Shown: piece by piece, positions 2,099-59,698 of the stretch | Layout of the letters: each line of letters starts with the position of its first letter | Position numbering within the stretch: the first letter of the stretch is position 1 | Assembly (NCBI GenBank): GCA_000004985.1 | Contig: GG738860.1 | Source: Naegleria gruberi | Taxonomy: Eukaryota | Strand: one strand, 5' to 3' | DNA length: 64,000 nucleotides | Program-made: the position numbers and the translations under genes | Notes under the pieces: generated by a model | What the model was told of the DNA's origin: nothing | Seen by the model: only the letters and a program-made list of their open reading frames with translations | Databases searched by the model: none

Positions 2099-2668
2099 AT
2101 GTCATACCTTCGAACCCTCTCACTCTATGAACATTGGGATGAGTTTGTTGATGAAACTGTTAAAATGATAATTGAAGAGTGGTCCTCATCACCTTCCGTA
2201 CGAAAAGTAATGCTCCTCAACGATAAAAACACACAGGAAAATAATAATTCGCCTGTTCCTGTGAGTTTAATTTTGGTCAATGAAGAAAATCAAGTGGTTT
2301 CACATGCTAAATTAATTAAATCACAGGAAAATGTTTATATCATTGAAACTGTTGTCACTCGGAAAGATAAAAGAGGTCTCGGATATGGAAAGAGAATTGT
2401 AGATGAAATGTGTTTATATTTTAAAAACAATTTTATTACTGATACATCCAGTACTTTGTATCTATCAACTAAAATACCTAAATTCTATGAAAAGAGTGGA
2501 TTTATAACAAGTCAACCACCAGAGGCTTGTGGAAAAGTCTGTTCAAACCTCAATTCATCTCAAATTAATTCATTGTCTGCCATGTTATCAAAGAGAAATC
2601 AAACTAATTTACCTTTAAGCTCTGAATCCAAATCTGATGAAGTGTGGATGAAATGGATTGTTCAATAA
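2099..2668 (+). CDS. GNAT-family N-acetyltransferase (single exon)
   Basis: 189-aa ORF with acetyl-CoA binding motif A, R-G-L-G-Y-G-K-R-I-V (Q/RxxGxG/A), in a GNAT-like context (VYIIETVVTRKDKRGLGYGKRIVDEM). Native AT-rich composition with a poly-N run. Confidence 0.55.
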   Translation: MSYLRTLSLYEHWDEFVDETVKMIIEEWSSSPSVRKVMLLNDKNTQENNNSPVPVSLILVNEENQVVSHAKLIKSQENVYIIETVVTRKDKRGLGYGKRIVDEMCLYFKNNFITDTSSTLYLSTKIPKFYEKSGFITSQPPEACGKVCSNLNSSQINSLSAMLSKRNQTNLPLSSESKSDEVWMKWIVQ

Positions 2669-2858
2669 AAGATAAATGAATTGTACAACCAATCTTATCT
2701 ACAATATGTGTATCATATTCTCCATCATAATAATGTTTGTGTTCATCTTTGTATTCCAAGAGGAAATAGGTAGGTATTTTTAGAACACTCAAATAATTTT
2801 AAAAATTCATCTATTAAAAAATTAAGCTCACAACAGCTGCACCAATTATTGTATAAAA

Positions 2859-4463
2859 ATGACGATCAAGGAGACTACCGATGCTGAAATGAAGGAATCA
2901 ACTTCCCCAACTACTACTACTCTTTCACCAGAAGAGGAATTGGAATTAGTTATTAAAGGAGAATTGAAGGATCAATTAAAGTTAATTGCTAAATCAGCCC
3001 AACAAGATGATCTTGATAATGATAGAAAACAAATGAGAGCTTTTAGATTGTTCTACAACAAATTAAGAAGACAAATCACAGCCAAGTTGCTCGTTAGCAT
3101 TTTGAAGGTAGGTTTTGAATTGATTCCGATCTAATATTTTGTGGATTAATCTTAGGAATTGAAATGTTCTCATATTGTTTCATATATTGAAGATACTATC
3201 GGAATGCAAGACGATGAACAAAAGCCAATCCCAGAAGCTGAAATTTATTTATGGCTTATTACAATCATCTTTTTAACTGATAAGAAGGAATATCGTCGTG
3301 CTTATACTTGTGCTCTTGATTGCGTGAAATATCAACAAACATTGGAAAAGCAACAAAAGTCTCGCTCTGTCAATTTCCTCTTCTCTAAAGTGTATTTTTA
3401 TTTCTCCCTTGCTCATGAAAAGTTGCCAACCATTTCCAACAATGAATTTAGAAATATTTTGTTAGGAAGATTACGTAGTTGTACATTGTCTCATGATAAT
3501 TGGAGTCAATTTGTTATTTTGAACTGTTTATTGAGATCATATTTACAAGACAAGCTTGTAGAACAAGCCAACAAACTTTTGAAGAATGTACCTGTAGATC
3601 AAACAATTGGACATGTTGACAACAGTCAATTGGCTAGATATTTCTACTACAAGGGAAGAATTCAAAGTATCCAATTGGAATATTCTGAAGCTTTCAACTC
3701 TTTGCAAACTGCTCTCCGTAAGGCACCAAGTGCACAACCAATCAAGAAATCTCAAGGTACTGAATCAATTAATCCAGCTAAACGTACTTATGGTGTTGGT
3801 AGAGGCTTCCGTATCCATACTAACAAGTTGCTTATTGTTGTTAGCTTGTTGATGGGTCACATTCCAGATCGTTCACTCTTTGTTAATACTATTGAAGCAA
3901 CCAACGATAGTGTCACTTTGTCACAATTGAAGCCATATTATGAACTAACACAACAAGTTAGACTTGGTAATGTTAACGGATTTGAAACAATTGTTGAAAA
4001 GTATAGAGATCAATATATTGCTGATGATAATTTGACACTTATTAATCGTATTAGACAAAACGTCATTCGTACCGGTTTGAAGTCAATCATCAAAGCTTAT
4101 TCAAGAATTTCATTTGCAGATGTCAGTCAAAAATTGCATTTGAATGATGTTGATATTAATGATGTTCAAGGTATTATTGCCAAGGCCATTAAGGATGGTA
4201 TTATTGATGCCAAGATTGATGAAAGCACCCAAAGTGTAGATACAGCCAAGAATCAAGATGTTTATCAAACCAGTGAACCAGCTGATGAATTTGACAAACG
4301 TATTCAATTCTGTTTGAGTTGTAGAAGTCAATGTATCAAGGCCATGAGATATCGTGAAGAAAAGAAGAAAAAGCCAACACAACAAGACTCTGAAGATTCT
4401 CTTCATTTAGATATTGATGAACTTGTGGATGAAGTCGATGATGATGATATCATGGATGATTAA
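2859..4463 (+). CDS. RPN3: 26S proteasome regulatory (lid) subunit Rpn3/PSMD3, PCI domain
   Basis: Two exons join(2859..3107,3156..4463); 48-nt intron GTAGGT...CTTAG, phase 0. Strong family motifs: PEAEIYLWLITIIF, ARYFYYKGRIQSIQLEYSEAFNSLQTALRKAP, HTNKLLIVVSLLMGHIPDRSLF, RISFADVSQKLHL, IIAKAIKDGIIDAKID, RIQFCLSCRSQCIKAMRY (all match PSMD3 by recall). Confidence 0.85.
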
Positions 4464-6708: not shown

Positions 6709-7268
6709 ATGTCAAAACCAGTAAAGATTAGAGCAGGTACAACAGCATTGTTAGGAATTATCGGTGATGAGGAAACTGTTACTGGTTTCTTGTTGGCAGG
6801 TATTGGTGATAATGATCCAAAGCATGCTGAAAATTTCCTTATCGTTTCCCAAAGTATGTGTGATTTTTTTGTTATGATGATATATATTTGTTGTGTGATG
6901 ATATTTGGTTGACGAATTGTGAATATTATTAATGTTATTGGCATGAAATTATAATGCGGAAATAATGGACTTTTTACTTTGGATTTTAAAAGGTACTCCA
7001 CAATCACAAATTGAAGAAGCTTTCAAAAAATTCACTTCCAGAGAAGATATTGCTATTTTACTTATCAACCAACATGTTAGTATTTAATATTTCAATTAAT
7101 TTCTTACGAGTATAATGTATTAATTAGGTCGCTGAACAAATCAGATATTTGTTGGACAGCTATTCTCAAATCACTCCAGCTATTTTAGAAGTCCCATCTA
7201 AGGAAGCTCCTTATGATCCATCCAAAGATTACATCCTCTCCCGTGTTAAAATGTTCTTCTCCGATTAA
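6709..7268 (+). CDS. ATP6V1F: V-type H+-ATPase subunit F
   Basis: Three exons join(6709..6853,6993..7075,7128..7268); introns 139 nt (GTATGT...AAAAG, phase 1) and 52 nt (GTTAGT...AATTAG, phase 0). Product [34 protein letters not shown]...[78 protein letters not shown] is collinear with human ATP6V1F. Confidence 0.88.
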
Positions 7269-11041: not shown

Positions 11042-12106
11042 TTATTTCGACTCCAAACTACTATTGGATTGTGATTGTTTAGAGAGTGGTGTTCTGATTT
11101 TTACAGTACACCTTTTTTTCCATTTTGTTGGTGTGTCATCATCGCTTTTTCTCTTGTTCTTGTTTGGGGAATGGTCAACAAACGATGGTGAATACTTTTC
11201 TTCCTTTGGCTCTTCTTTTGGTGGTGGTGTGAGAATAATAATATTGGTATCGTCTGGCGATAGAATAATTGTGTGAATAGAACTGTCTTTTGTTTCCTCC
11301 TTTTTAATTGGACTAATAGCTTCCAGACCTCCATCAAAACTGTCTGTGAATGAAGAATCCACAAGGTTAATGGTGGTAGAATCACTCTTTCTCTTTGGAA
11401 TGGAGAAGAATGCAAGATTGGGAGTTACGGTTTTTGTCTTTAGCTGCTCTCGTTCTTTTTCTTCCTTAATTATAGAATTAATTATTTTTTCCTCGGGTAA
11501 TGGATTCGTCCTATCAATATTAGAATTATATCGTAGAATGAATTCCTTAATTCTCCAAATCATTTGTTCTCTGGTGCCATGGAGAGGTAATGAATATTTC
11601 TTCAAATATTCTTTGAGTTGATTGTTTTTCAATAATGAAAAACAAAGTGGTGGAAGTTTGCTTTTTTGAATTTGCTCGTGAGTATGTTTGTTGTTTTTAA
11701 GTTGTTCAGACCAGTCGAACGATTCTTGACTTTCACTGATTATTGATTTTTGATCTTCTCTCGTTTGGCTTATTTCCTGACTATGATTTCCAAATTTTTC
11801 CATAAGATCTTTCCTCGCTCTAATATACATATCCATCATATCCGAAACAAAAGGTATTTTAATGATATCACTCTTTGAATATTCCTCTTTACAGACAGGA
11901 CATTTGTTTCTAAATGAAAATTCTCTAGAAATACACAAATCACAAAAGAAGTGATTGCATGTTTTTACACATTTTGGATTATCCATAAATTCTTTACAAA
12001 TAGGACATTGCAAACTCCTCTCGAATTGTGACATTGAAGGAATACTTGACTCCCACCAATCTGCATCGGAAGAGTCCTCAACAGAGAGCAGTGGATGTTT
12101 TGACAT
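11042..12106 (-). CDS. RAD18: RAD18-like E3 ubiquitin ligase (RING + SAP), post-replication repair
   Basis: N-terminal C3HC4 RING (CPICKEFMDNPKCVKTCNHFFCDLCISREFSFRNKCPVCK) followed by a SAP motif (LKEYLKKYSLPLHGTREQMIWRIKEFILRYN; compare human RAD18 LKEHGLSIQGNKQQLIKRHQEFVHMYN). Single exon. Confidence 0.75.
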   Translation of the reverse strand: MSKHPLLSVEDSSDADWWESSIPSMSQFERSLQCPICKEFMDNPKCVKTCNHFFCDLCISREFSFRNKCPVCKEEYSKSDIIKIPFVSDMMDMYIRARKDLMEKFGNHSQEISQTREDQKSIISESQESFDWSEQLKNNKHTHEQIQKSKLPPLCFSLLKNNQLKEYLKKYSLPLHGTREQMIWRIKEFILRYNSNIDRTNPLPEEKIINSIIKEEKEREQLKTKTVTPNLAFFSIPKRKSDSTTINLVDSSFTDSFDGGLEAISPIKKEETKDSSIHTIILSPDDTNIIILTPPPKEEPKEEKYSPSFVDHSPNKNKRKSDDDTPTKWKKRCTVKIRTPLSKQSQSNSSLESK

Positions 12107-12239
12107 TTTTTTAATAATAATTAATTTTCAGTTCTTGCGCTTGATCGAACTCCAAATCACTGGTCATTTCGAGCATGAAGAAAATGGCGCCTAAATTGTA
12201 GTGTAACAGAAACCCTCTACAGTTTTCAAAATCAAAAAA
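12107..12239. promoter_or_regulatory. Short (133 bp) divergent intergenic region shared by RAD18-like (minus) and CFAP161-like (plus); candidate bidirectional promoter
   Basis: Start codons at 12106 (minus) and 12240 (plus) with no room for separate promoters. Inferred from gene arrangement only. Confidence 0.3.
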
Positions 12240-13124
12240 ATGCAATATTATACAACACAACAACTTCAAGGTCATACAACCTTTAAACCTCACGTTAGAA
12301 TCGGAAATTGGAATGAGGATATTGAATTAATGAACGAAAAACAAAAAGAATTAGAAAGAGCTAAGGATGCTGGTTTGCTTCCTCATCAAGTGATGGAAAA
12401 AAAGTTGCAACATCACATGGAACCAGTAACAATCAAATTTAATGAAGAAAAACAAATTAGATTCGGAGATATTGTTATGATAAAAAGTTTAAATACAAAT
12501 GGGTACTTGTCAATGGATTTGGATACACAACTTCATCATGTTCACGATAGATTTGCTTGCTCCACTTCTCCTTTGGTTAATTCGCCAGTGTCAAGGAATT
12601 GTTATATTGTCGAAAGAGTTGAGAACGATGTCAATATCGATATGATCATTCCTGATGAGGAAAGCCATTTACTTCACTATGGGCAAAAGTTTAGATTGAG
12701 ATGCGTTCCTCAATTTAGTGCACCTGTAAGTATTCTGAGTTCTTCAAACCTTAAAGATTAATCGATTATGCAGCTCTTTTTGAGATCAGAAAAGGCCTCA
12801 CCAACCTGCTTTGCTTCAGGAACTTCAAGCGCAGAGAAATGTCAAGAAGTTTCTGTTGACAAATTGTACACATATGATTCTGTTTGGAAATTTCAATACA
12901 TCCACAAAGGATTTAGACTTGAAAATGAAGGACAAGTGGTTACTCTTGATGATCCACTGATTGTCACTCACTGTGCAACAAATCAATGTTTGAATTCTAC
13001 AAAGAAAACAACTGTTTTGAATGATTTTGGACAAGAATTCCAAGTTTTCTGTAAAACCATGTTAACCATCCACAAGACTGAAGATGTATGCAATCATTTT
13101 GTTTTGACACAAGGAGGAAAATAA
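12240..13124 (+). CDS. CFAP161: CFAP161 (C15orf26)-like cilia/flagella-associated protein
   Basis: Two exons join(12240..12725,12774..13124); 48-nt intron GTAAGT...ATGCAG, phase 0. N-terminal signature HVRIGNWNEDIEL matches CFAP161 RVRMGNWNEDVYL. Further collinear blocks: LHYGQKFRL vs LRYGQDFCL, LIVTHCATNQCL vs ILINHCHTNRGL. Confidence 0.7.
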
Positions 13125-17835: not shown

Positions 17836-18672
17836 TCAAACAAAACATCTGAAGAAACTTTTACTCTTTTCATTTTCTTTAGCATTCAAAGCAACATTTT
17901 CAAAAATGTCTTTGGATTCAATGATAACATGTTCTTCCTTGATTGGTTGAACTAGATCTGTGTTGACAATTTTGAGTCGTTCACGAATAGCTTTTTCTAT
18001 TACTGATACAATAGAGGCTCCTGTTCTAGCTGAACAAGTTGCCTTAAAACAATTAGTTTTTGAGGAAAGGTTTTTGAATATCTCGTTCAATTGTTTTTCA
18101 TCAACAACTGTTGATGGAAGATCAATCTTATTTCCTAATAATACACAATTAATTGATGAAAGATCCACAACTTTCTCAACTTCCTTTATCCAAGACTCGA
18201 TATGCAGCAATGATTCCACCTCTGTACAATCATACACAAATATAATTAAATCTGATTGTCTATAATATGATTTGTGTATTGTTCTAAAGCGTTCCTGTCC
18301 AGCTGTATCATATACTGTTTTAAGGCAATTTATATTTAGTAATACGATCATCATACTGAGTACTAGAAATTATTACTCACTCGTTAATTTTACATTCTTT
18401 TCATCAAGCTTTACTATTTTACTGACAAAATCTACAGCAACTGTCGAAGCTACTGAAGAAAATGTATCATCAATATATCTTTTAATAATACATCTGTGTG
18501 CATAAACGCATTCAATAACAAAATTCCGAAAAATCCAACACCATTCAAAACAAGGGTCGATTAGAGCAATGTATAAAATAATGAAACTTTACGTTTTACC
18601 AACGCTCACATCTCCTAAAAAACAAACTTTCAAAGAAATATCATAATCATCCTCACATTCCAATAAGGACAT
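17836..18672 (-). CDS. Rab-like small GTPase lacking C-terminal prenylation cysteines (RABL2-like, tentative)
   Basis: Three exons complement(join(17836..18314,18381..18493,18593..18672)); introns 66 nt (GTGAGT) and 99 nt (GTAAAG). G1 GDVSVGKT; G3 DTAGQERF followed by KSYYRQSD; G4 GNKID; G5 SAR. Ends ...FFRCFV with no CC/CXC. 222 aa. RABL2 has the similar KICLGDSAVGKS / DTAGQERF...ASYYHKA pattern and is likewise unprenylated. Confidence 0.65.
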
Positions 18673-20549: not shown

Positions 20550-22238
20550 TTAATGTCTCCAACTATTTAGGGTTAGAACTCAATAGTAAAATTAAAAAAC
20601 TTACATCTTCAACATTCTGTCCTTACCACCAGAGGCAGCTTTATCACCACCAGGAGACCAATCGACAGCAAAAACTTCATCGTAGTGACCAGGCATATCA
20701 TTGAGAAGTTGACGTTTTTGAACATCCCACACCTTAGCAGTCGAATCCTTACTAGCAGAAAGTAATAATCTAGAGTCACCACTCCAACAACATTGATAAA
20801 CAGCACCAACGTGACCTCTCATACTACATAAATATTTACCAGTTTGGGCATCCCACAATTTGATTGTCTTATCAAATGAAGCACTAGCAATAAGTCTACC
20901 ATCTGGTGAAAATTTAACTTGATTGACAACTCCCTTGTGACCAGTTAATCTAGCAATTGGTTTATCACTCTTTGAAGGTTCCCATAAAATAAGAGTATTA
21001 TCATCTGAACCTGTTATTATTCTAATTGGTTGAGAACCGAATGTCTTATTGTACAAGCTCAATAAATCTTCCTTTCTCTTATCAACTTCTTCTTTAGCTT
21101 CTGGGAGAGGTTCACAATTGTGATCAAAAGCACCTCTTCTTAAAAAGTATTCAGTACTAACAGACATGGTATTAACCCAGTGAGCATGTCCAGATAAAAC
21201 TTGTACACATTGTTTAGTATCAGTATTCCACAATCTAATAGTACAATCCTGAGAACAACTATACAGAATATCATTCAAACCCCACATAATTCCAGAAACA
21301 CCTTTTGAGTGACCAGAAAGTGTAAATTCCTTTTGTGTCATTACTGTATCCCAAATAATAATTGTACCATCCTTACTACAACTTGCCAATCTCTTACATG
21401 CAGTATTTTTCAAAAATGGTTCCCAACTCAAACCAGTAATCCACTTTTTGTGACCTTTCAATACTTTTCCACACTTTTTACCACTATCTCCATACCAAAT
21501 TTTAATATTGCAATCTTTACTACCACTTGCAAGTTTTTTAGCATCTGGAGACCAAGCAACACATAAAACCCAACTTTCGTGACCTTTAAGAGTATGTTGT
21601 GGAGTTTCAGTATTCAAATCCCAAATTCTAACAGTATTATCACCTGAACCAGTTGCTAATTGTTCACCATTTGGAGAGAAATTAACAGATAAAATAGCTT
21701 CAGAGTGACCTTCAAGTGTTGAAGTACATCTACTGACAGGTCTAACTCTAAACAATGCTTGAGGATGATAGACAATCTTTAAAGGAGCATCTTGTGTTGA
21801 TGCAAAATCAAATAAATCTTGTCTCTTTTTCAAAGCAAGTTGATTTTTAGAATTCAATTGTTCTGTAAGTGTTGCCATTAAAGTATCTCTAACACTTGCT
21901 TGAATTTCTTCACCATTCACAGAGAAGGAATATGGTAATTCTTCTGTATTATCAAGAAAGAGGTTACTATTCAAAAGTTGATTTAATTGAAGTTTAGACA
22001 TGTTAGCATCAATTTCAACTGTAGTACCAGACTTTTCATCATCAATTCCACTCACAAATTCAACAAAATATCTTCTTTCAGATGCAATACCTGTGAGTGT
22101 TTCTTCCGATGAGGTTTTTAATTGTTTTGCTTGATTTTCAATAAGATCACCCGATGATGAAGAGGCCTCATTTGTTGTCGATGTTGTTGTTGCTTCGGAG
22201 AGTTTTCTCTTCTGTGCAGAGGATTTTTTAGCATTCAT
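20550..22238 (-). CDS. NLE1: Notchless homolog (NLE1/Rsa4), WD40 ribosome-biogenesis factor
   Basis: Collinear with human NLE1 from IVYHPQALFRVRPVSRCTSTLEGHSEAILSVNFSPNG through KAASGGKD. The main ORF ends ...KDRMLKM*. A 42-nt intron (20563..20604; donor AT|GTAAGT, acceptor AAATAG) plus a 13-nt terminal exon (20550..20562) restores the conserved ending KDRMLKIWRH (human KDKCLRIWRR). Exons complement(join(20550..20562,20605..22238)). Confidence 0.8.
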
Positions 22239-30885: not shown

Positions 30886-30966
30886 GCGGTCTTGACCGAG
30901 TGGTTAAGGTGATTGACTAGAAATCAATTGGGGCGACCCGCACAGGTTCGAATCCTGTAGACCGCG
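30886..30966 (+). tRNA. tRNA-Ser (anticodon AGA)
   Basis: Hand-folded cloverleaf. Acceptor GCGGTCT/AGACCGC (7 bp), U8; D-arm ACC-GAGTGGTTAA-GGT (3-bp stem, Ser-type); anticodon stem ATTGA/TCAAT with loop CTAGAAA (anticodon AGA); 13-nt variable arm TGGGGCGACCCGC; T-arm ACAGG-TTCGAAT-CCTGT; discriminator G. Internal Pol III A-box (AGTGGTTAAGG) and B-box (GGTTCGAATCC) present. Followed by T5-T6. Confidence 0.85.
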
Positions 30967-47634: not shown

Positions 47635-47993
47635 TTAGAATGAATTACTTCCTTTAAAAACTAGAACTGCAAGGTTTCCATTGAAATAAAGGTAAAGTAA
47701 GTTCTTTGCTTCATGAGTCACTGACACTCCGAATCCTTCTCCTATTATACAATGCCATGATTTACCATATTTCTTATCCATTTGGGTTTTAATTGCCTTA
47801 GCAGCATTTTCATAATTTTGGGGTGATTTTTCCAAAGCTGTTTCAATTGCTGTTGATACTGTTTCAACACAGTCTATCCTCATATCTTCCGGCATATCAC
47901 AATGCTTAGAAATTTATTTTGTATAACTTGATGATTTAAAAGACCTACCACTACGAGCGCTAAATTATTTGCTGGATTTCCTTCTTCTGCCAT
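47635..47993 (-). CDS. DYNLL: Dynein light chain LC8 (DYNLL family)
   Basis: complement(join(47635..47904,47949..47993)); 44-nt intron GTAGGT...TTCTAAG, phase 0. Product MAEEGNPANNLALVVHCDMPEDMRIDCVETVSTAIETALEKSPQNYENAAKAIKTQMDKKYGKSWHCIIGEGFGVSVTHEAKNLLYLYFNGNLAVLVFK matches the LC8 pattern ([44 protein letters not shown]). Exon 1 (15 codons) is less certain. Confidence 0.68.
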
Positions 47994-48121
47994 TTTTTTT
48001 GTAAATTTATCTGATAAAATTGGCGGGCGCTTGAACTGCAACTAACACTTGGGGTAGGTGGACCTAAAGAAATTACGCTGAAGGTGAAAATCTGTTATTT
48101 ATTAATTCTCTCATCAAAAAA

Positions 48122-49705
48122 ATGGACGATCAACCACTTGAAGAAGACCGTCTATCACAAACTAATGAACAAAAGGATAACAATTCTGCTGTTTCAAATG
48201 CAGAACAAGATAAGGGATCATTGTATGAGAGAGGAAAACAGTTTTTAACAATTAAGGAATCAAAGCTTAGCAAAGAGAGAGAAAGAAAAGTGAATCAAGG
48301 ATCATCAGAATGTACTTTCCAACCAAATATATCAAAGAAGAGTAAAAACATGACTCGGGAAGAGAGTTTGTACGAATATAACAACAAGTGGGTATGTACT
48401 ACATCGCATTTATTTTACTAAGATGTTCGTTAACAGAAATCTAAAGTTGATCATAACATTGAGGAACTAAGAGCAAAGCAATTGAAAAGAGAAGAAGAAC
48501 AAATCCATGCAAAACCATCACCATTATCTGTTGTTTCACAATTTATAATTCAAAAGAAACAGGAACAGAAGGAATATTCAGGTCCTATTACTGGTTGGGA
48601 GAAGAGATTTGATGAATATCGTCATAAGAATCAAATGTATTATGATGAAGAGTACAACTTTTCTCCAAGAATTAATGAGAAATCAACATTGTTGGCCAAC
48701 AAAAATAGATCCGATGCAGAATCAAATCCTTTTGAAAGACTTTATGGAGATTCAAAAAAGAAAAAGGATGAGGAATCCTCAAGTCCAAAAGACAAGAAAA
48801 AGTCGTCTGAATACGACGATGAAAGAAGGAGAGCTGAGGCAGAGTTTTATAAGAAGGCACTTGAAAGACATTTAGAGGCAGAAAAGAAGAAAGCAAAAAT
48901 GAAAGAAGATCAAGAAGATCAATACTCTTTTAAACCTGCTATTAACAAACATTCAAAGGATATAGCCAAACATTTGGAAAGACCACCACTTTATTCACCA
49001 AAGAAAGGTTCTTCACCATCTCAAACTATTTCCCTTGAGAATACCGTTACTACAAATACAAGTACTAATTCTAATACTACTAAGCCAGATAGTCCTTCTC
49101 CAAACAAAAAGAAGTTCGAAGTTGATAACTTTATTCAAAGAAGACTTACTAAGGAGAAACAAAGACAAGATAAGATTAATCAACTTAAACACGATATAAT
49201 AGAAGAGGAAATGAAAGAATGTACATTTAAGCCTTCGATCAATCAAAAGTCTGTGGAGCTTGCACACTTGTGGATTGAATCATTTGATAATGATTTGGAA
49301 GAATTATATGAATTTGACCCAAGATACAATCAATCTTCTCCTAAACCATTCTTGAAAAAGAATTCATCACCTGGTTTGTCATCTTCCAAGAAGGAAAAAA
49401 CAAAAGGAAGTCCAATTAGACAGAGCTTGAAATCAAGTTCTTCCAATATTATTGAGTCAATCATAGATGATGCTATGAAGAGTATTGAAATGGAAAGATC
49501 CCTGAAATCAACACCAAAGAGCTCAGTCGAGATGTCAAAAGAACCTACACTAAAAGAAATTGTAACACCAAGAATCTCAGAATCAAACAGAAAGAGATAC
49601 TCTCTATCTGATGATGAAGATGATGACTTTGTATCAATAGAAAATGAAATGAAATCGGCCATCCAAGAATTTGAAGAAGAATGGAGTAAATATGAAGGCT
49701 TGTAA
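48122..49705 (+). CDS. K/E-rich protein with three C-[TY]-F-[KQ]-P-x-I-N-x-K-S motifs (possible microtubule-associated TPX2-like repeats; tentative)
   Basis: Two exons join(48122..48391,48437..49705); 45-nt intron GTATGT...TAACAG, phase 0. Repeats ECTFQPNISKKSK, YSFKPAINKHSK, CTFKPSINQKS spaced about 100 aa apart. No catalytic motif. Confidence 0.55.
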
Positions 49706-49706
49706 A

Positions 49707-51966
49707 CTAACACATAAATGCTTTAATTTCTTTTGAAACTGTCGAAATTGCACTTTCTAAATCCGTTATCTTGGAAGACAAGTCAACCCAATGTAAATCA
49801 ACTCTTCCTTCGCTGTAACCAATTGCTACTCTGTCATTCTTATTCAGAGCTTTCATTAAATCTGGTTGGTGATGAACTAGCACACTTTGCACTTTCTCCT
49901 TTTGAGAAAGACAAATTAATCCTAATTTGCAGCTCACTCTATTAATCTTATCTTTGGATTGTGATTTTAAGGTCACCTTTTCACAGAATATTAACTTATC
50001 GTTTTGAATGAGATCGAATACCATTAGATCATCATCACTGGTTAAAACAAAGAATACAGATGGATGAACAGCACTCCACTTAATATCTACAATACTTGAG
50101 TTGGTGTAATGTTTAAAGTTAATGATTGGATCTTCGTATCCTTTCAGAAACAGAGCAAACATTCCATTTTCGTAACCAGCAAGAAAATATTGAGGTAAGA
50201 AAAATGAAAATTCCACACACGTAACTCTTGATGTAATATGATGAATATTGGACGAGTACCCATCCTTTCTTTTTACAATGTTGTATGGTTTTATATTGTC
50301 AATGAATCTTCCTCTTCTCAGTATATGTCCAAAATCTGTTCCAACCAATATCCTAAAAGATTAAGTTTCATTGTGTTCGAAATACTTACTGTGAAGAGTC
50401 GTCTGGATCAACCTCGAAACAAACAGCAGCTTCAATTGAGGGAATAAATTGTTCATGGTTGGTATTATCATTTGCGTTTGTAAATCCTTTAAGGATAGAG
50501 GCAGCTAAACTTGTTTCATTCTCCACCTTTTTCAAGTTTAGCTCTAATGTTGGCTCTCCGAATACGTTCATTCTTCCACTGTTTACAATTTTTACCTTTC
50601 CACCAATATTCAACCCAATCTCTGTATCAGAGACTCCACTATCAGGTCTTAGATTCCATCTTAATGTTGTTTTACTTACTGTTGAGAGAGGAATATCACA
50701 AGCCAATAAATTACATTACCAGCTTCATCCAGAGAAATAAAATAATCTCCCATACTTCTTATTTCGTTTGAATATATTGAGAGTTGAGAACTGATAGTTT
50801 TCACTTGGACTACAGAGCACAAGTGAGTTTCACTGAAGAGATTAGCTGTTGAAAAGGATGGAGTGAGGAATGACAATGGAGATTCTTCAATTATTCTTGT
50901 CTTTGGATTTTGATTTGAATCCCAAACAACTACAGATCCATCATTTGCACCAGCAATAATAATATTTGGTCTATCTGGAAGGCAACAAACGCTTGTCAAT
51001 TCACAACCATAAATTAAACAGCTTAAATAGGTGAAATTAAAATCGAATGATCTATCAAGTTAATACTTACAGGACTGGTGATTTTTCATTTAGAGTATCC
51101 CAGATACAAACCAATCCAGTTTCAATTTCTACATTTGAATAATTAGGTCCGTAACATACTATCATTTGGTTATCTTTTGAGAAAATAATTTCCTTAACCT
51201 CTCTTCCATTTGTCAGAGGATGGCCGAAAACAGAATAGCTACTACTAAACTTAAACATAGATTCTCTATTCTTTGTATCTGATTCTGTATTACTACTGGT
51301 GTTAGATTCTAGAATCCTGTCACAGACTGGATAGACAGCTTTCAAAAATCTTGACAATGACAGAGAATTAAATTTGAACTTGTCCATACTATTCTTTGGT
51401 GTACTCTTACTTGATATACCTAAATCTTCTGGTGCTTGGATCGCTTTTACTGACTGTGTTGGTGGTATTGTGTTACATCCCATTTCCTTCTTTTCATCCA
51501 ACGGAGGACATTGAACAGAAGTCTGCATAGATGTTCCTTTTCCAAATGATCTTTGATACATTTCAAAATCAGATAGTGGAGGTAAATCCATCACTTCAAA
51601 TGAAACATTATCCAATGTAATTAATTCCAATAGCTTTTGAGCTCTGTCCAACTTTTTTTGATTTTTTTCAAGTCTCTCCTTTTCTTCCTTTGAGAGAGTA
51701 GGTTTAATTTTGATAGCCTTTGTTGTGATTTCCTCTTGTCTAATTATCTTGATGAATTTCAATCCAAGTTTAAATCCTTACCTGGTGCTCGGAGTTGTAT
51801 TTACAATTTTATCATTTTGTATTTCAACCCTAGATTGAAATGTCTGAGGCACTATTGTTTTTGCAGGTGCACTATTGAACACTGGTTTTTGAGGTACTTC
51901 TTCCTCAAAGTCATCCTCGAAATCATCCTCGAAATCATCATCAAAATCGTCATCAAAGTCAGACAT
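49707..51966 (-). CDS. WD40 protein resembling dynein-2 intermediate chain WDR34/DYNC2I2 (tentative), six exons, acidic DFDDDF N-terminus
   Basis: complement(join(49707..50352,50390..50647,50680..51021,51071..51739,51782..51966)); the 50647/50680 junction (32-nt intron) is the least certain, all other introns 37-49 nt with GTAAG donors. Block IVCYGPNYSNVEIETGLVCIWDTLNEKSP parallels WDR34 [30 protein letters not shown]. Candidate LC8-binding TQT-like site GTSMQTSVQ. WD-type repeats follow (GSVVVWD, NVIYW). Confidence 0.6.
51906..51965. repeat. 12-nt tandem repeat x5 ((A/G)TCATC(C/A)TC(G/A)AA-like) encoding (DFDD/DFED)n on the minus strand
   Basis: aagtcatcctcg / aaatcatcctcg / aaatcatcatca / aaatcgtcatca / aagtcagac. 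Read directly from the sequence. Confidence 0.6.
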
Positions 51967-52079
51967 TTTTTTTGCTTATTTTTCCCTCCAAAATTGTAGT
52001 TTGCAGTTGAATAGGTTTTTAAACAACCGCAGCTCTTACATATAATTTTTATTACAAAACATTTTACACCTTTCCCTCT

Positions 52080-54409
52080 CTAATAATCATTTACTTTTTG
52101 AATTAAATTATTGGAATTCTTAACAAGATTTTTAAGATTCTCCATTTGATAGGCAGGCGCCTTTCCTAAATATTGTTGCTCAAGTTTGGATTGAACGGCC
52201 TTCTTGAGTGTTGAAAAGAATAATGGCTCATCAGCTAAAAAGTCATCCTTAGTTGCTCGCAGAGGATATTTAGAATCTGCTGTTGGTAGAACATCATCTG
52301 TTAATTCGCTATCTGAAGAATTACCTCCATTTTCATCATTTTCTGCCTTCTTCTTCAAATGTAAATATGTCTTGTTGGTAAGATTTTCAAATTTAGCTTC
52401 CTTCTCTTTACTTTTAGTGGCAGCTTCTTGTTCACCACCAGCCTCGGCAATTTTCATTAATACATTCGAATAAGATTCTTGGACAATACTCAAGAAAATG
52501 TTAACAATTGCACAAACTGTAAAATTGTTATCATATAAATTTTAAATTTCTGATAAACTTACTGAAAAGCAATAACTATTTATGTTATTAGCAATATTAT
52601 TCAATTAAATAAACTTACAAATATGACAGTATAAGCTCTTCCCAATATTTTGTAGAAAGTTCCATAAGCATACAATTTCTCGAATACAATTCTAAGGTTG
52701 TCACCTTGAAGGGCACTATATAATGTGACCATAGTGTTATCAATGTTTTTGAAATCTTACCAGTGTTAAATATTTGTTAAGTTTCAAACTTACAAGAAGA
52801 GTAAAATCCGAACCACATAACACCTGTGCAAACAAATGCCGCAAATATTGGAGCTATACTGAACAAATACTTCATAATTATTGGAATAGCTCTTGTAAAT
52901 GCTCTAATGACTAATATAATGTCAATCATTTGTTAATGTCGCTAATAACTTACCCAAGTAGAATTTTGCTTGATAATTAAAGTATTTTGTTAAATTTACA
53001 AGAGAAAGGAATGATCCAATGCCAAGAAATGTTTGAGAAGCTAATTCTGTACTCTCACCTGATTTGACAATCATTGTAATATATCCAATAATTAACATGA
53101 CATCTTTAAGGAAAGCAACATAAATCCAAATTCCTAGATAATCAGTAAATAGGTCATAAAATCTCATCAATTTGTTTGTTTTTTTTCTTTTCTGTAATGT
53201 GTTTAGAATTGTTACCAATATCTTGGGTACTTACAAAGAATACAGTTAATCTAGTAATTAATGATTTGTTGTAAAATATAAAAGAAATAAACGCAAAAAT
53301 ACACATCAAAATACCAATCCAACCTCTTGGTCTTTGGAAAATAGATGAATAATAAGCATCTTCATTTGCCACACAATTATCTTTTTGGAAAATTATTATT
53401 ATCATATCAGAAATTATCTACACAACTTACCATACTTGTAAGATAATCTCATTGGAACTCTGCCACCTCCATCAAAAACGAACTTAAAGAGAACAGTCCA
53501 TTTGTAGCAATTAGGAAATCCCTGAACTTTGGTATCAATACTTATCAGTTTGAAAAAGAGTTCCAAGTTTGTGATTCTGTCAACAAGATATTTAAGATCG
53601 TCTCCTGTCACGTTAAATAGAGAGCCAAGGGGTTCTGAATCTGTTAAATTCTCATTGATTTCGATGGTTTCATCAGAAAATAATGAGTGAACGTCTCTTC
53701 TTGCAATAAATCTCCAATCAATCATTGATGGATCGCTATCTCCATTAGTTTCATTTGCAATTAGTCGTCTAATATTTTCCTTATATAAGGTAGCTCTCAA
53801 TTTTACAAGATTTTGACTAGTAGGAACAAAAACACTAACAGAATTTTCCTGTATCGAATAGTATTTTGCTACAAGACTCTGAATATTCTTCTGCAGATCG
53901 TCCACATTATAAATGTAATAAGTGAAGAAACCTAACAAGAAATGTTAGAAATACTGAAATTCTCTCTACTCACCATCATCGTTATCCTTAATATTTTGAA
54001 ATCCACTATGAAATAATTAACTTGAAAATATGAATTATTCAACCTACTTTGGAAGGAAATAATTCGAAAAAGTATTACTCATATCTGATTTATATCCTTT
54101 AAATTCGGATGCATAAAAGATAATAAAAAGAATTACTAATGCAGCCTGGATAATATCTGTTACTAATTTTGTTGGAAATACTCTATACTTTAAAAACTTT
54201 TGTACAAGTGACAATTGAATCGCTTCTTCTTCATCATCGATTTTTTGTGGTAAAACTCTTTCTTTAAGAAAAGTATAGGAACGAGCCAACAGAGTTGGTG
54301 TTTGCAATTGCACTTGAGAGTTTGATGGCAAATTCAATTGATTAAAATCGTCATCGTCTCCCAACTGCACCGTGCTATTGGCAAGAAGAGATTGTCTCAA
54401 TCTTTGCAT
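52080..54409 (-). CDS. TRP-family cation channel of the mucolipin/polycystin-2 (TRPML/TRPP) type, about 9 exons
   Basis: Minus exons (ORF-track pieces 54044..54409, 53414..53938, 53154..53405, 52922..53218, 52080..52493 plus small exons in 52500..52900) are linked by 37-50-nt GTAAGT/GTAGGT introns. N-terminal cytosolic region, then S1 (LVTDIIQAALVILFIIFYASEF). Large S1-S2 ectodomain with N-glycosylation sites and CYKWTVLFKFVFDGGGRVPMRLSYK. S2-S5, then pore helix with TLYSALQGDNLRIVFEKLYAYG (compare TRPML ETLFALVNGDDMF). S6 VIFVCAIVNIFLSIVQESYSNVL. Exact internal exon boundaries not all resolved. Confidence 0.6.
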
Positions 54410-55883
<1,474 letters not shown>

Positions 55884-58112: not shown

Positions 58113-59698
58113 TCAACACTGATTGTTTGGTCTTGTTTCTTCAAAGAATTTCTCTCCAAAAACTTGGGTGAGACTTGGGAGCTTATTTTGCAATTGTATT
58201 TGTCCGTGTGATTTGGATTTTACAAACATAGGTCTCGAAATTGATGAATAAGGTGTTGGTGGTTGCTGTTGTGGAACTGGCATATGCATCTCTTGTTGTT
58301 GAGGAGAACTTGATAAACTTGAACTAACTAAGGATTGTACTGTTGACACACTTAGAACTTGCTCCTTCTTCTTTTGTATACCCTTAGCTGTTTGCTGAGC
58401 AACAGCGGTAAGTGATGAAGCCTTTTTTAGGGGTGGCCTAGAAAAAGAACTAGTTGTTCTTCTTAACATTCCACTACCTGAATTGTTGGAATCATTATCC
58501 AAATCAATAGCTGACATGTTTGCGACCAAATCACTCAAACTACTACTGCTGCTGCACGTGCTTAATGTACCAGTTTGGAAGTGATTACTCTCCGTATTCG
58601 TACAATTTGAAAATGTTATGGAGCTGTTGCTGTTTGCTTTAAGTAATTGAGGTCTTCTTAAGGAGGATAATGCTGGTTGAGGAGAAGATTGAAAACTTGT
58701 ATGTTGTTGTGTTGGTTGTTGTTGAATAGGTTGAGGAGTTGAGGAATAAACATCTCCCATACATACATCGGCTGATTCGCTCAATACTTGCTGGTTTGTT
58801 TGAGGAAGTTGAATCTGAGTGTTAATGTGAGACGATGAGCTCATGTTGTTAAAACCAGAGTTGTTCGGGTTGATGTTCATCGTATTTGTGTTGTTAAGAG
58901 GATTCATTTGGTTTGGTTGGTTCATAGAGGATTGCATTCCCCATGAGAATGAATTGCCTGTTGGATGATTATGGTGCTGTGGGTGGTGTTGAGAATTGAT
59001 CATTGAGGTATCCATGTTTGAATAATTATTGCTGATATTGTTGCTAGAAACATTCATAGAGAAGGATGGTTGTGTAGCAACTGAATGATTTTGAGTATAA
59101 TTATTAAGTGAAATATGATGATTCATGTTGTTTGTCCAAGTACTTTGATGAGTATTATTACTATTATGGGAGGATCCCATCATTAATTGGGATGATTGGT
59201 TAGTGAATAAATTATTGTTGGTTGGTATTACATTGTTATTTGTTTGATACATGTTTGCATAATTTGTTTGTCCAATGGTGTTATTATTATTGTTAGGACC
59301 ATTGAAGTTTGTGGAATTATTTGGAATATTGGAAGAGGATTGTTGTTGAGGAGTTCCAAAGTCACTATCATTAAAGTTATTGAAAACAAACTCCTTATTG
59401 TCTCTGATAAATTCTGAAACCTTTTCCTTATATTCATCTTCATTCATTTCAACATTACTGTCATTGGCTCCTTTTTGTATTATTGACTTGATTCTTCTAT
59501 AAGGCCATCTATTGATTCCGTATTGACGACAGAACTTCTTTAGGAGAGTTTGGCATATTCCTTCATTAAGGTTAAATAAGATTATGATGAAAGGAATGTT
59601 TAATAATTACCCATGTCGTCTGCAGCTCTTTGTAGAGGAAGATGAAATCGCTCTGATATCTCTTCGTAAGTTGGTTTCTTCTTTGGTGTTGGTGGCAT
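58113..59698 (-). CDS. RWP-RK domain transcription factor with long N/Q/S-rich (prion-like) C-terminal region
   Basis: complement(join(58113..59560,59611..59698)); 50-nt intron GTAATT...AATGAAG, phase 1. Domain FHLPLQRAADDMGICQTLLKKFCRQYGINRWPYRRIKS has the invariant RWPxRK signature and the preceding helix, as in plant NLP/RKD and Dictyostelium proteins. The remaining 430 aa are N/Q/S/T low complexity. Confidence 0.72.

What the first reader, a model, noticed from the sequence alone, without database searches (positions are those of the whole stretch)
12240..13124. CFAP161 homologue (plus RABL2-like GTPase and dynein-2 IC-like gene) implies a ciliated or flagellated life stage
The N-terminal HVRIGNWNEDIEL block is the hallmark of CFAP161/C15orf26, a protein restricted to organisms that build motile cilia. 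The same window holds a prenylation-less Rab-like GTPase resembling RABL2 (17836..18672) and a WDR34-like protein. Rab7 C-terminus and an RWP-RK gene point towards Amoebozoa rather than Metazoa. Classical dictyostelids lack flagella, so this combination is taxonomically informative. It suggests a flagellated amoebozoan or another AT-rich protist.
Basis: partly seen in the sequence, partly recalled or inferred. Interest (0 to 1): 0.5.

Follow-up and report, generated by a model that had tools for sequence, protein, structure and literature searches.

The report
Naegleria gruberi CFAP161 flagellar gene
The window comes from Naegleria gruberi, a well-known amoeba that can grow flagella, and the flagged gene is its already annotated copy of CFAP161, a protein that lines the inside of flagellar microtubules, so the finding is correct in essence but ordinary.

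Summary
The gene at 12240..13124 (+) is real. It has two exons and a 48-nt intron and encodes 278 aa. The protein is identical to Naegleria gruberi NEG-M XP_002678707.1, UniProt D2VAI8 "FM141". It is a clear CFAP161 orthologue by four tests: Pfam PF24569; E about 1e-25 to solved CFAP161 chains; an AlphaFold model whose 17 best PDB matches are chains of ciliary or flagellar doublet-microtubule structures; and a conserved N-terminal NWE motif.

The window therefore comes from a heterolobosean amoeboflagellate (Discoba), not an amoebozoan. The inference of a flagellated stage is right but long known.

One of the two companion claims fails and the other needs correcting.
- The GTPase at 17836..18672 (-) is a lineage-specific Rab1/Rab18-like Rab, not RABL2. 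The curated N. gruberi RABL2 is a different protein, XP_002671329.1.
- The dynein-2 intermediate-chain gene is at 49707..51966 (-). It is the WDR60/DYNC2I1 type (E=3e-34), not WDR34 (E=0.007).

One side lead emerged. Short motifs (GGCGCC, CTACAA) lie just upstream of these ciliary genes in five heterolobosean species and almost never upstream of their neighbours. The sample is small and part of the analysis was post hoc.

Verdict: already known, low interest.

The parts
12240..12725 (+). CFAP161 (FM141, NAEGRDRAFT_65873) exon 1, residues 1-162
   Evidence: ORF and splice model. The spliced product is identical to XP_002678707.1.
12291..12329 (+). Codons for HVRIGNWNEDIEL. This is the NWE motif (R-I/V-G-N-W-N/S-E-D) that marks MIPs lying next to the A-tubule seam.
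   Evidence: R20, G22, N23, W24, N25, E26 and D27 are nearly invariant in a 21-sequence alignment. The NWE module is described in PMC10973386.
12726..12773 (+). 48-nt phase-0 intron (GTAAGT...CAG)
   Evidence: Removing it gives the annotated protein exactly.
12774..13124 (+). CFAP161 exon 2, residues 163-278 plus the stop codon; C-terminal part of the beta-trefoil (MIR-like) domain
12107..12239 (.). 133-bp divergent intergenic region between the RAD18-like RING/SAP gene (11042..12106, -) and CFAP161. It holds GGCGCC (12186-12191), CTACAA on the minus strand (12196-12201) and CTACAG (12217-12222).
   Evidence: The head-to-head gene pair is conserved in N. fowleri, N. lovaniensis and Willaertia.
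49707..51966 (-). Dynein-2 intermediate chain of WDR60/DYNC2I1 type, 696 aa. Five exons: 51966-51782, 51739-51071, 51021-50680, 50638-50390, 50352-49707.
   Evidence: PDB 6rlb_C WDR60 E=3.1e-34 against WDR34 E=0.007. All named distant homologues are DYNC2I1/WDR60. The exon model was chosen by alignment with the N. lovaniensis and Willaertia orthologues.
47635..47993 (-). DNAL4/LC10-like LC8-family dynein light chain, 104 aa. Two exons: 47993-47949 and 47904-47635.
   Evidence: Best PDB hits are trypanosomatid axonemal light chains (2.9e-27), with Chlamydomonas and Tetrahymena LC10 also ahead of most cytoplasmic LC8 entries, by a small margin (70.4 and 67.9 bits against 66-68). The orthologues carry PF01221.
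17836..18672 (-). Rab-family GTPase, 223 aa. Three exons: 18672-18593, 18493-18381, 18314-17836.

Best explanation
The gene is the Naegleria gruberi orthologue of CFAP161/FAP161, already annotated as FM141.

By homology, the protein is a microtubule inner protein that sits inside the A-tubule of the nine outer doublets of the flagellar axoneme, next to the seam. Its N-terminal NWE motif (RIGNWNED), followed by two helices, would contact the lumenal tubulin surface. The C-terminal beta-trefoil (MIR-like) domain would pack against neighbouring inner proteins. Together they help stabilise the doublet during beating.

Naegleria amoebae have no cytoplasmic microtubules. The gene is therefore expected to be silent in amoebae and switched on when the cell turns into a temporary biflagellate and builds basal bodies and axonemes from scratch.

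Shown here: gene structure, identity with the annotated protein, family membership by sequence, motif and predicted fold, and conservation in five heterolobosean species.

Inferred from solved structures of other organisms and from published Naegleria expression data: position in the A-tubule lumen, the stabilising role, and differentiation-specific expression.
For: - Exact match to XP_002678707.1 / D2VAI8 'FM141'.
- Pfam PF24569, 79.8 bits.
- E=1.8e-25 to 8.9e-15 against named CFAP161/FAP161 chains of solved doublet microtubules, covering residues about 13-276.
- AlphaFold2 model with pLDDT 82 and pTM 0.76.
- Its 17 best Foldseek PDB hits are all chains of doublet-microtubule structures from nine organisms; those I checked against one search are the CFAP161/FAP161 chains. 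TM-score 0.70-0.79. MIR domains follow only after these.
- The NWE motif is nearly invariant and is known as a seam-association module (PMC10973386).
- FAP161 is an A-tubule MIP in Chlamydomonas (PMC8233316).
- Orthologues at 71%, 69%, 55% and 43% identity in N. fowleri, N. lovaniensis, Willaertia magna and Acrasis kona. In the first three the locus is syntenic.
- The Naegleria MIP homologues that were examined are all upregulated only during differentiation (bioRxiv 10.1101/2024.01.08.573270).
- N. gruberi forms flagella de novo (PMC4819266).
Against: - No localisation or expression data for this particular gene were seen. The 2010 genome and microarray papers are not in the library.
- CFAP161 knock-outs in mouse and Xenopus have no ciliary phenotype (PMC8233316). 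The stabilising role is therefore plausible but not shown to be essential anywhere.
- Overexpressed tagged Xenopus protein accumulated at basal bodies, so a basal-body pool cannot be excluded.
Confidence: 0.93

Rival explanations
1. The protein acts mainly in the basal body or centriole (triplet A-tubule lumen) rather than, or as well as, the axoneme. It would then be part of Naegleria's de novo centriole assembly programme.
For: GFP-tagged Xenopus CFAP161 localised to basal bodies (PMC8233316). Naegleria builds basal bodies and flagella in one differentiation programme (PMC4819266).
Against: All solved structures that contain CFAP161 are axonemal doublets. The authors of the Xenopus work attribute the basal-body signal to overexpression. 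Mouse CFAP161 is axonemal.
Confidence: 0.1
2. It is a generic beta-trefoil/MIR-domain protein (like SDF2, PMT or the IP3-receptor N-terminus) with no ciliary role, and the CFAP161 resemblance is only at the level of fold.
For: There is a weak sub-threshold Pfam hit to Ins145_P3_rec (18.7 bits against a cut-off of 23). MIR domains appear in the fold search from rank 20.
Against: The CFAP161 matches are 10 or more orders of magnitude better and cover the whole length, including the N-terminal NWE helix region that MIR proteins lack. All named homologues come from flagellated lineages, with Acrasis (no known flagellate stage) the one possible exception.
Confidence: 0.01
3. The three cilium-linked genes in the window share a transcriptional control element. 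A proximal GGCGCC-type GC box and/or an (A)CTACAA box would switch them on during the amoeba-to-flagellate transition, in an organism that lacks RFX and FoxJ1. This adds to the main explanation rather than competing with it.
For: - In 194 kb of non-overlapping sequence from five heterolobosean species, GGCGCC lies within 100 nt upstream of the ATG in 6 of 13 ciliary-gene promoters and 0 of 67 other promoters.
- CTACAA: 9 of 13 against 1 of 67.
- Both motif classes together: 6 of 13 against 0 of 67.
- An unbiased k-mer scan ranked CTACAA and CGCCA first.
- GGCGCC was fixed as the motif before the Willaertia and Acrasis loci were fetched. One of the two sites in those 64 kb lies at -32 of the WDR60-type gene.
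- RFX and FoxJ1 are missing in Naegleria (PMC10530576).
Against: - Only three gene families are involved, and their orthologous promoters are not independent. Counted by family, the result is about 2 of 3 against 0 of 12 (p about 0.03, my own tally).
- The motif definitions were partly tuned after seeing the data.
- The GC box also occurs at the NPL/DEAH-helicase promoter (window 46657; L004 17035) and resembles an E2F site. It may serve the divergent partner genes such as RAD18-like.
- Within the window alone, two copies of CTACARTTTT are expected by chance in 23% of shuffles.
Confidence: 0.3

Closest known systems
CFAP161 / FAP161 (C15orf26), an A-tubule microtubule inner protein of ciliary doublets (PDB 6u42, 7rro, 7ung, 8g2z, 9e78 and others)
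   Same: - Same length class (278 aa against about 250-320).
- Same N-terminal NWE motif, followed by two helices and a beta-trefoil.
- 23-28% identity and TM-score 0.70-0.79 to solved chains.
- Found in an organism with motile flagella.
   Different: - Compared with green algal and most other protist homologues, it lacks an insertion of about 19 residues near the C-terminus, as do the fish sequence and the other heteroloboseans.
- It lacks the C-terminal EF-hand extension seen in several algal and other protist homologues in the same alignment. The solved Chlamydomonas and Tetrahymena chains are also longer (403 and 492 aa).
- No structural or localisation data exist for Naegleria.
RABL2 (ciliary IFT-associated Rab-like GTPase)
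   Same: Small GTPase of the Ras superfamily with WDTAGQERF-like switch II; about 30% identity.
   Different: - The window GTPase (XP_002678829.1) is closer to Rab1A (44% identity, 120 bits) than to RABL2B (30%, 80.5 bits).
- By eye it carries Rab-family RabF-like motifs.
- It has a 50-residue C-terminal tail ending in FFRCFV, and its Willaertia orthologue ends in CYCF.
- The curated N. gruberi RABL2 is XP_002671329.1, which has almost no C-terminal extension (PMC4736243).
WDR60 / DYNC2I1 (FAP163), intermediate chain 1 of the retrograde IFT motor dynein-2
   Same: - The best match by far is human WDR60 (E=3.1e-34).
- This includes the conserved DLPPL..FEMYQRSFG block upstream of the WD40 propeller.
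- All named distant homologues are DYNC2I1.
   Different: - Much shorter N-terminus (696 aa against 1066 aa).
- Only weak Pfam WD40 hits.
DNAL4 / Chlamydomonas LC10 (outer-arm dynein LC8-family light chain)
   Same: 104 aa. 57% identity to human DNAL4, including IGEGFG..THE.KNLLYLYF. The best PDB hits are axonemal light chains.
   Different: Scores against canonical LC8 are only moderately lower, so assignment within the LC8 family rests on pairwise similarity and not on a phylogeny.

Membership tests
CFAP161 (Pfam PF24569) | Match to the family HMM above the curated gathering score | tested here: met
   79.8 bits against a cut-off of 27, E=2.7e-22; residues 70-274 match profile positions 19-243 of 245.
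CFAP161 (Pfam PF24569) | N-terminal NWE motif (the module for association with the A-tubule seam) | tested here: met
   RIGNWNED at residues 20-27, nearly invariant across 21 homologues. The motif is defined in PMC10973386.
CFAP161 (Pfam PF24569) | Fold: N-terminal helices plus a beta-trefoil, superposable on solved CFAP161 chains | tested here: met
   AF2 pLDDT 82.1 and pTM 0.76. Foldseek ranks 1-17 are all chains of doublet-microtubule structures; those checked against one search are the CFAP161/FAP161 chains. E=1.8e-20 to 3e-13, TM-score 0.70-0.79.
CFAP161 (Pfam PF24569) | Occurs in organisms that build motile cilia or flagella | tested here: met
   The source is N. gruberi NEG-M (exact match), an amoeboflagellate (PMC4819266).
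CFAP161 (Pfam PF24569) | Physical location in the A-tubule lumen of axonemal doublets | not testable with these tools
   Needs cryo-EM or localisation in Naegleria flagellates.
RABL2 | Closest similarity or orthology to RABL2 rather than to canonical Rabs | tested here: not met
   - Best PDB hits are Rab1A/B (2.9e-33), then Rab43, Rab30, Rab18 and Rab8.
- No RABL2 appears among the 120 best database hits.
- The curated NgrRABL2 is XP_002671329.1, a different protein.
RABL2 | No C-terminal cysteine or prenylation motif | tested here: inconclusive
   The protein ends in FFRCFV, with a Cys at -3, which is not a canonical CAAX, CC or CXC motif. The Willaertia orthologue ends in TCYCF.
WDR34 / DYNC2I2 | Closest similarity to WDR34 among the dynein intermediate chains | tested here: not met
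   WDR34 (6rlb_D) E=0.007 against WDR60 (6rlb_C) E=3.1e-34.
WDR60 / DYNC2I1 | Closest similarity to WDR60, including the region N-terminal to the propeller | tested here: met
   The alignment covers query residues 47-422 and 476-600.
WDR60 / DYNC2I1 | Assembly into dynein-2 with WDR34 and the light chains; a role in retrograde IFT | not testable with these tools
   Biochemical and genetic.
DNAL4 / LC10 subfamily of LC8 light chains | Dynein_light (PF01221) fold, and closer to DNAL4/LC10 than to cytoplasmic LC8 | tested here: inconclusive
   - The orthologues carry PF01221.
- PDB: axonemal trypanosomatid light chains at 98 and 91 bits and LC10 at 70 bits, against LC8 at 64-68 bits.
- 57% identity to DNAL4 and 42% to DYNLL1, using recalled sequences.
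- No phylogeny was made.

The most novel reading that the evidence does not exclude
Ciliary genes of Naegleria and its relatives may share proximal promoter elements: an (A)CTACAA box and a GGCGCC(A/T) GC box within about 80 nt of the ATG. These would be the cis-regulatory handle of the rapid amoeba-to-flagellate switch, in a lineage that lacks RFX and FoxJ1, the ciliogenesis regulators of animals.
Probability: 0.3. Interest if true: 0.5.

Novelty: already known. Interest (0 to 1): 0.12.

Why it matters
The main finding changes nothing. N. gruberi has been a model for de novo basal-body and flagellum assembly for decades. Its genome paper listed flagellar-motility genes, and UniProt's name FM141 appears to place this gene among them. 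CFAP161's place inside the A-tubule is known from many cryo-EM structures.

The value of the check is corrective:
- The organism is a heterolobosean, not an amoebozoan.
- The 'RABL2-like' gene is an unrelated lineage-specific Rab.
- The dynein-2 intermediate chain is WDR60-type.
- A third axonemal gene, DNAL4/LC10-like, was missed.

The only part that could matter is the side lead on shared upstream motifs. How ciliogenesis is controlled transcriptionally outside animals and their closest relatives is open. Naegleria's synchronous differentiation would make a candidate cis-element directly testable against existing expression data.

Tried and rejected
- Looked up the contig of the N. gruberi Rab-like protein P0024 to see the annotated neighbours; it is not on record.
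- Exact-sequence look-ups failed for my models of the WDR60-type gene (two splice variants), the Notchless-like, RAD18-like, TRPML, full-length Rab-like, DNAL4-like and Rce1-like proteins. Their official N. gruberi models differ or are partial, so their annotation status is unknown.
- The 2010 Naegleria genome paper and the 2010 differentiation microarray paper are not held. I could not check the origin of the FM141 label or the induction profile of gene 65873 directly.
- Splice model B for intron 3 of the WDR60-type gene (GTAATG donor) was rejected. Model A aligns without a break to the N. lovaniensis and Willaertia orthologues.
- Pfam scans of single exons of the channel gene gave nothing. 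The assembled protein matches mucolipins, so it is not a ciliary PKD2 channel.
- The WD40 gene at 20601..22238 was considered as the 'WDR34-like' gene and rejected. It has seven canonical WD40 repeats and its Willaertia counterpart carries the NLE domain, so it is Notchless-like.
- I considered reading the GC box as an E2F site. Some copies fit GCGCCAAA, but the commonest form, GGCGCCATTT, does not. This is left open.

Full report
**The observation**

The window is AT-rich (about 32% G+C) and gene-dense, with short spliceosomal introns. At 12240..13124 on the plus strand two open reading frames, 12240..12761 and 12768..13124, are joined by removing a 48-nt GTAAGT...CAG intron (12726..12773, phase 0). 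This gives a 278-residue protein.

The protein matches Pfam PF24569 (CFAP161-like domain) at 79.8 bits against a curated cut-off of 27. By sequence alone it also matches named CFAP161/FAP161 chains in solved doublet-microtubule structures of Tetrahymena, cattle, human, Trypanosoma, Leishmania, pig, sea urchin, mouse, Trichomonas and Chlamydomonas. E-values run from 1.8e-25 to 8.9e-15 and the matches cover nearly the whole length.

**Where the window comes from**

An exact-sequence look-up shows that my spliced protein is identical to Naegleria gruberi XP_002678707.1 / EFC45963.1 (NAEGRDRAFT_65873). UniProt D2VAI8 calls it "Uncharacterized protein FM141". It lies on a 536,960-nt scaffold.

Two other proteins confirm the source:
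- The Rab7 encoded at 55006..55883 is identical to N. gruberi XP_002678716.1, on the same scaffold.
- The Rab-like protein is 100% identical to the partial XP_002678829.1.

N. gruberi belongs to Heterolobosea within Discoba, not Amoebozoa. Orthologues of the CFAP161 protein are found in four relatives:

| Species | Identity |
|---|---|
| N. fowleri | 71% |
| N. lovaniensis | 69% |
| Willaertia magna | 55% |
| Acrasis kona | 43% |

In the first three species the gene keeps its head-to-head arrangement with a RING/SAP (RAD18-like) gene.

**What the gene product is**

An alignment of 21 homologues shows that the motif R-[IV]-G-N-W-[NS]-E-D is nearly invariant. [quoted passage not shown] In CFAP161/FAP161 it occurs without the Mn repeats that accompany it in the other family members (PMC10973386).

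An AlphaFold2 model built on that alignment has mean pLDDT 82 and pTM 0.76. It shows two N-terminal helices followed by a beta-rich domain. A Foldseek search of the PDB returns chains of ciliary or flagellar doublet-microtubule structures in ranks 1-17, at TM-score 0.70-0.79. Those I checked against one search are the CFAP161/FAP161 chains. MIR-type beta-trefoil domains (Pmt4, IP3 and ryanodine receptors, SDF2) follow only after these.

Chlamydomonas FAP161 is an A-tubule MIP and mouse CFAP161 is axonemal. Knock-outs in mouse and Xenopus have no overt ciliary phenotype (PMC8233316).

The best-supported mechanism is therefore a lumenal A-tubule MIP that helps stabilise the flagellar doublets. 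It would be made only when the microtubule-free amoeba differentiates into a flagellate. That timing is inferred from two sources:
- The report that the Naegleria MIP homologues examined are upregulated exclusively in differentiation (bioRxiv 10.1101/2024.01.08.573270).
- The biology reviewed in PMC4819266.

I could not see data for this specific gene, because the 2010 genome and microarray papers are not held.

**The companion genes**

The Rab-like gene:
- The gene at 17836..18672 (-) has three exons and encodes a 223-aa Ras-superfamily GTPase.
- Its best solved relatives are Rab1A/B (2.9e-33), Rab43, Rab30, Rab18 and Rab8.
- Its best named database relatives are Rab1A and Rab18. No RABL2 appears among the 120 best hits.
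- Decisively, the pan-eukaryotic RABL2 survey lists the N. gruberi RABL2 as XP_002671329.1, a different protein with almost no C-terminal extension (PMC4736243).
- The window protein ends in FFRCFV and its Willaertia orthologue ends in TCYCF, so "prenylation-less" is doubtful.
- The gene is missing from the syntenic position in N. fowleri.
- It is a lineage-specific Rab with no evidence of a ciliary role.

The dynein-2 intermediate-chain gene:
- It lies at 49707..51966 (-) and has five exons.
- The splice model was chosen by alignment with the N. lovaniensis (69%) and Willaertia (52%) orthologues.
- It matches human WDR60/DYNC2I1 at E=3.1e-34 and WDR34/DYNC2I2 only at E=0.007.
- Every named distant homologue is DYNC2I1/WDR60.
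- It is a genuine cilium-linked gene, for the retrograde IFT motor, but it is the other paralogue.

The WD40 gene at 20601..22238 (-) is a Notchless-like ribosome-biogenesis protein (NLE domain in the Willaertia counterpart).

**What else is in the window**

At 47635..47993 (-) lies a two-exon, 104-aa LC8-family dynein light chain. Its evidence is as follows:
- The best PDB matches are axonemal light chains of trypanosomatids (2.9e-27).
- LC10 of Chlamydomonas and Tetrahymena also scores well, only slightly ahead of canonical LC8.
- It is 57% identical to human DNAL4 and 42% to DYNLL1, both recalled from memory.

It lies one gene away from the WDR60-type gene in Naegleria and Willaertia.

The remaining genes are housekeeping:

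| Gene | Coordinates where determined |
|---|---|
| PSMD3 | |
| PHD-finger protein | |
| INTS5-like | |
| RAD18-like | 11042..12106 (-) |
| CDP-alcohol phosphotransferase | |
| Rce1-like protease | |
| RCC1-repeat protein | |
| LRR/SAP protein | |
| ABC1 kinase | |
| DEAH helicase | |
| Nucleoplasmin-like | |
| Mucolipin/TRPML channel | 52080..54409 (-) |
| Rab7 | 55006..55883 (+) |
| RWP-RK | 58116..59606 (-) |
| CobW | |
| E2-like | |

**A side lead: shared upstream motifs**

While reading the upstream regions I saw that CTACARTTTT occurs only twice in the window, each time 14-33 nt upstream of the ATG of CFAP161 or the WDR60-type gene. GGCGCC also occurs only twice, at -54 of CFAP161 and -190 of the WDR60-type gene.

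I fetched the orthologous loci of N. fowleri, N. lovaniensis, Willaertia and Acrasis. An unbiased k-mer scan compared the 100 nt upstream of 10 ciliary gene starts with 62 other starts. It ranked CTACAA (7/10 against 3/62) and CGCCA (7/10 against 6/62) first.

The extended set has 13 ciliary promoters. Eight divergent partner genes that share an intergenic region with a ciliary gene were set aside:

| Motif | Ciliary promoters | Other promoters |
|---|---|---|
| GGCGCC | 6/13 | 0/67 |
| CTACAA | 9/13 | 1/67 |
| ACTACAA | 6/13 | 0/67 |
| Both motif classes | 6/13 | 0/67 |

The 10-mer GGCGCCATTT is shared by three different genes: CFAP161 in N. gruberi, the DNAL4-like gene in N. lovaniensis and N. 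fowleri, and the WDR60-type gene in Willaertia. Across 194 kb, a GC box and a CTACAR box lie within 60 nt of each other at eight places, and six of these are ciliary promoters.

The caveats are serious:
- Only three gene families are involved, and their orthologous promoters are not independent.
- Counted by family, the contrast is roughly 2 of 3 against 0 of 12 (p about 0.03, my own tally).
- The motif definitions were partly tuned after seeing the data.
- The GC box also sits in the nucleoplasmin/DEAH-helicase promoter of both N. gruberi and Willaertia, so it is not exclusive to ciliary genes.

RFX and FoxJ1 are missing from Naegleria (PMC10530576), so a ciliary cis-element there would be of some interest. 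It needs a genome-wide test that I could not run.

**Comparison with what is known, and verdict**

The gene meets every CFAP161 membership feature that can be tested computationally. UniProt already names it FM141. I take "FM" to stand for the 'flagellar motility' set of the 2010 genome paper, from memory, because that paper is not held. Using ciliary genes to infer hidden flagellate stages is established practice, including within Heterolobosea (a 2025 study is cited in the reference list of PMC12731214).

- Novelty: already known.
- Interest: low.
- The most novel reading not excluded is the promoter-motif lead. I give it a probability of about 0.3.

Noticed in passing
window 47635..47993 (-): An unflagged third cilium-linked gene. 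It is a 2-exon, 104-aa LC8-family dynein light chain, closest to DNAL4/LC10-type axonemal light chains. It lies one gene away from the WDR60-type dynein-2 IC, and this arrangement is conserved in N. lovaniensis and Willaertia.
   Followed up: yes
window 12186-12222, 48021-48030, 51990-51999, 52156-52161; L001 7958-7979; L004 9951-9975; L006 2701 and 7022-7079; L007 3060; L008 2958-2981: GGCGCC(A/T) and (A)CTACAA motifs lie within about 80 nt upstream of the ATG of CFAP161, the WDR60-type gene and the DNAL4-like gene across five heterolobosean species. They are almost absent from 67 neighbouring promoters (GGCGCC 6/13 against 0/67; CTACAA 9/13 against 1/67). The sample is small, partly post hoc and phylogenetically non-independent.
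   Followed up: partly
window 11042..13124; L001 6639-8901; L003 8740-10884; L008 1675-3903: The head-to-head pairing of a RAD18-like RING/SAP gene with CFAP161, across a short shared intergenic region (133-240 bp), is conserved from Naegleria to Willaertia. It is not present in Acrasis.
   Followed up: partly
window 17836..18672 (-); L001 12761-16901: N. gruberi annotates the Rab-like gene as 'rho family small GTPase, partial', although it is a Rab-family protein. It has a Willaertia orthologue ending in CYCF. It is absent from the syntenic position in N. fowleri, where an amine oxidase gene sits instead.
   Followed up: partly
L006 about 2121..2950 (N. fowleri VFQX01000043.1): The DNAL4-like light-chain gene is intact in N. 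fowleri (ATGGAACAAACTGAG..., two exons), but no gene is called there in the assembly's annotation.
   Followed up: partly
window 52080..54409 (-): An eight-exon gene encodes a mucolipin/TRPML-type channel (TRPML1 E=5.5e-12). One intron appears to use a non-consensus GTTTAT donor. My model is not identical to any protein on record.
   Followed up: partly
window 48122..49702 (+): A gene of unknown function sits between the WDR60-type and DNAL4-like genes and shares a divergent promoter with the latter. It has repeated [CY][TS]F-x-P-x-IN-x-x-S motifs, no Pfam match, and a conserved position in Naegleria and Willaertia. It is a possible co-regulated partner.
   Followed up: no
L005 10001..10834 (Acrasis kona): Acrasis kona is an aggregative heterolobosean with, to my knowledge, no described flagellate stage. 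It keeps an intact, intron-less CFAP161 orthologue with TTTGGCGC 12-19 nt upstream of the ATG. [quoted passage not shown]
   Followed up: no
window 20601..22238 (-): A 545-aa protein with seven WD40 repeats resembles Notchless (ribosome biogenesis). It could be mistaken for a dynein intermediate chain but is unrelated to cilia.
   Followed up: partly
window 30886..30966 (+): A single tRNA-Ser(AGA) gene is the only RNA-family match in the window.
   Followed up: no
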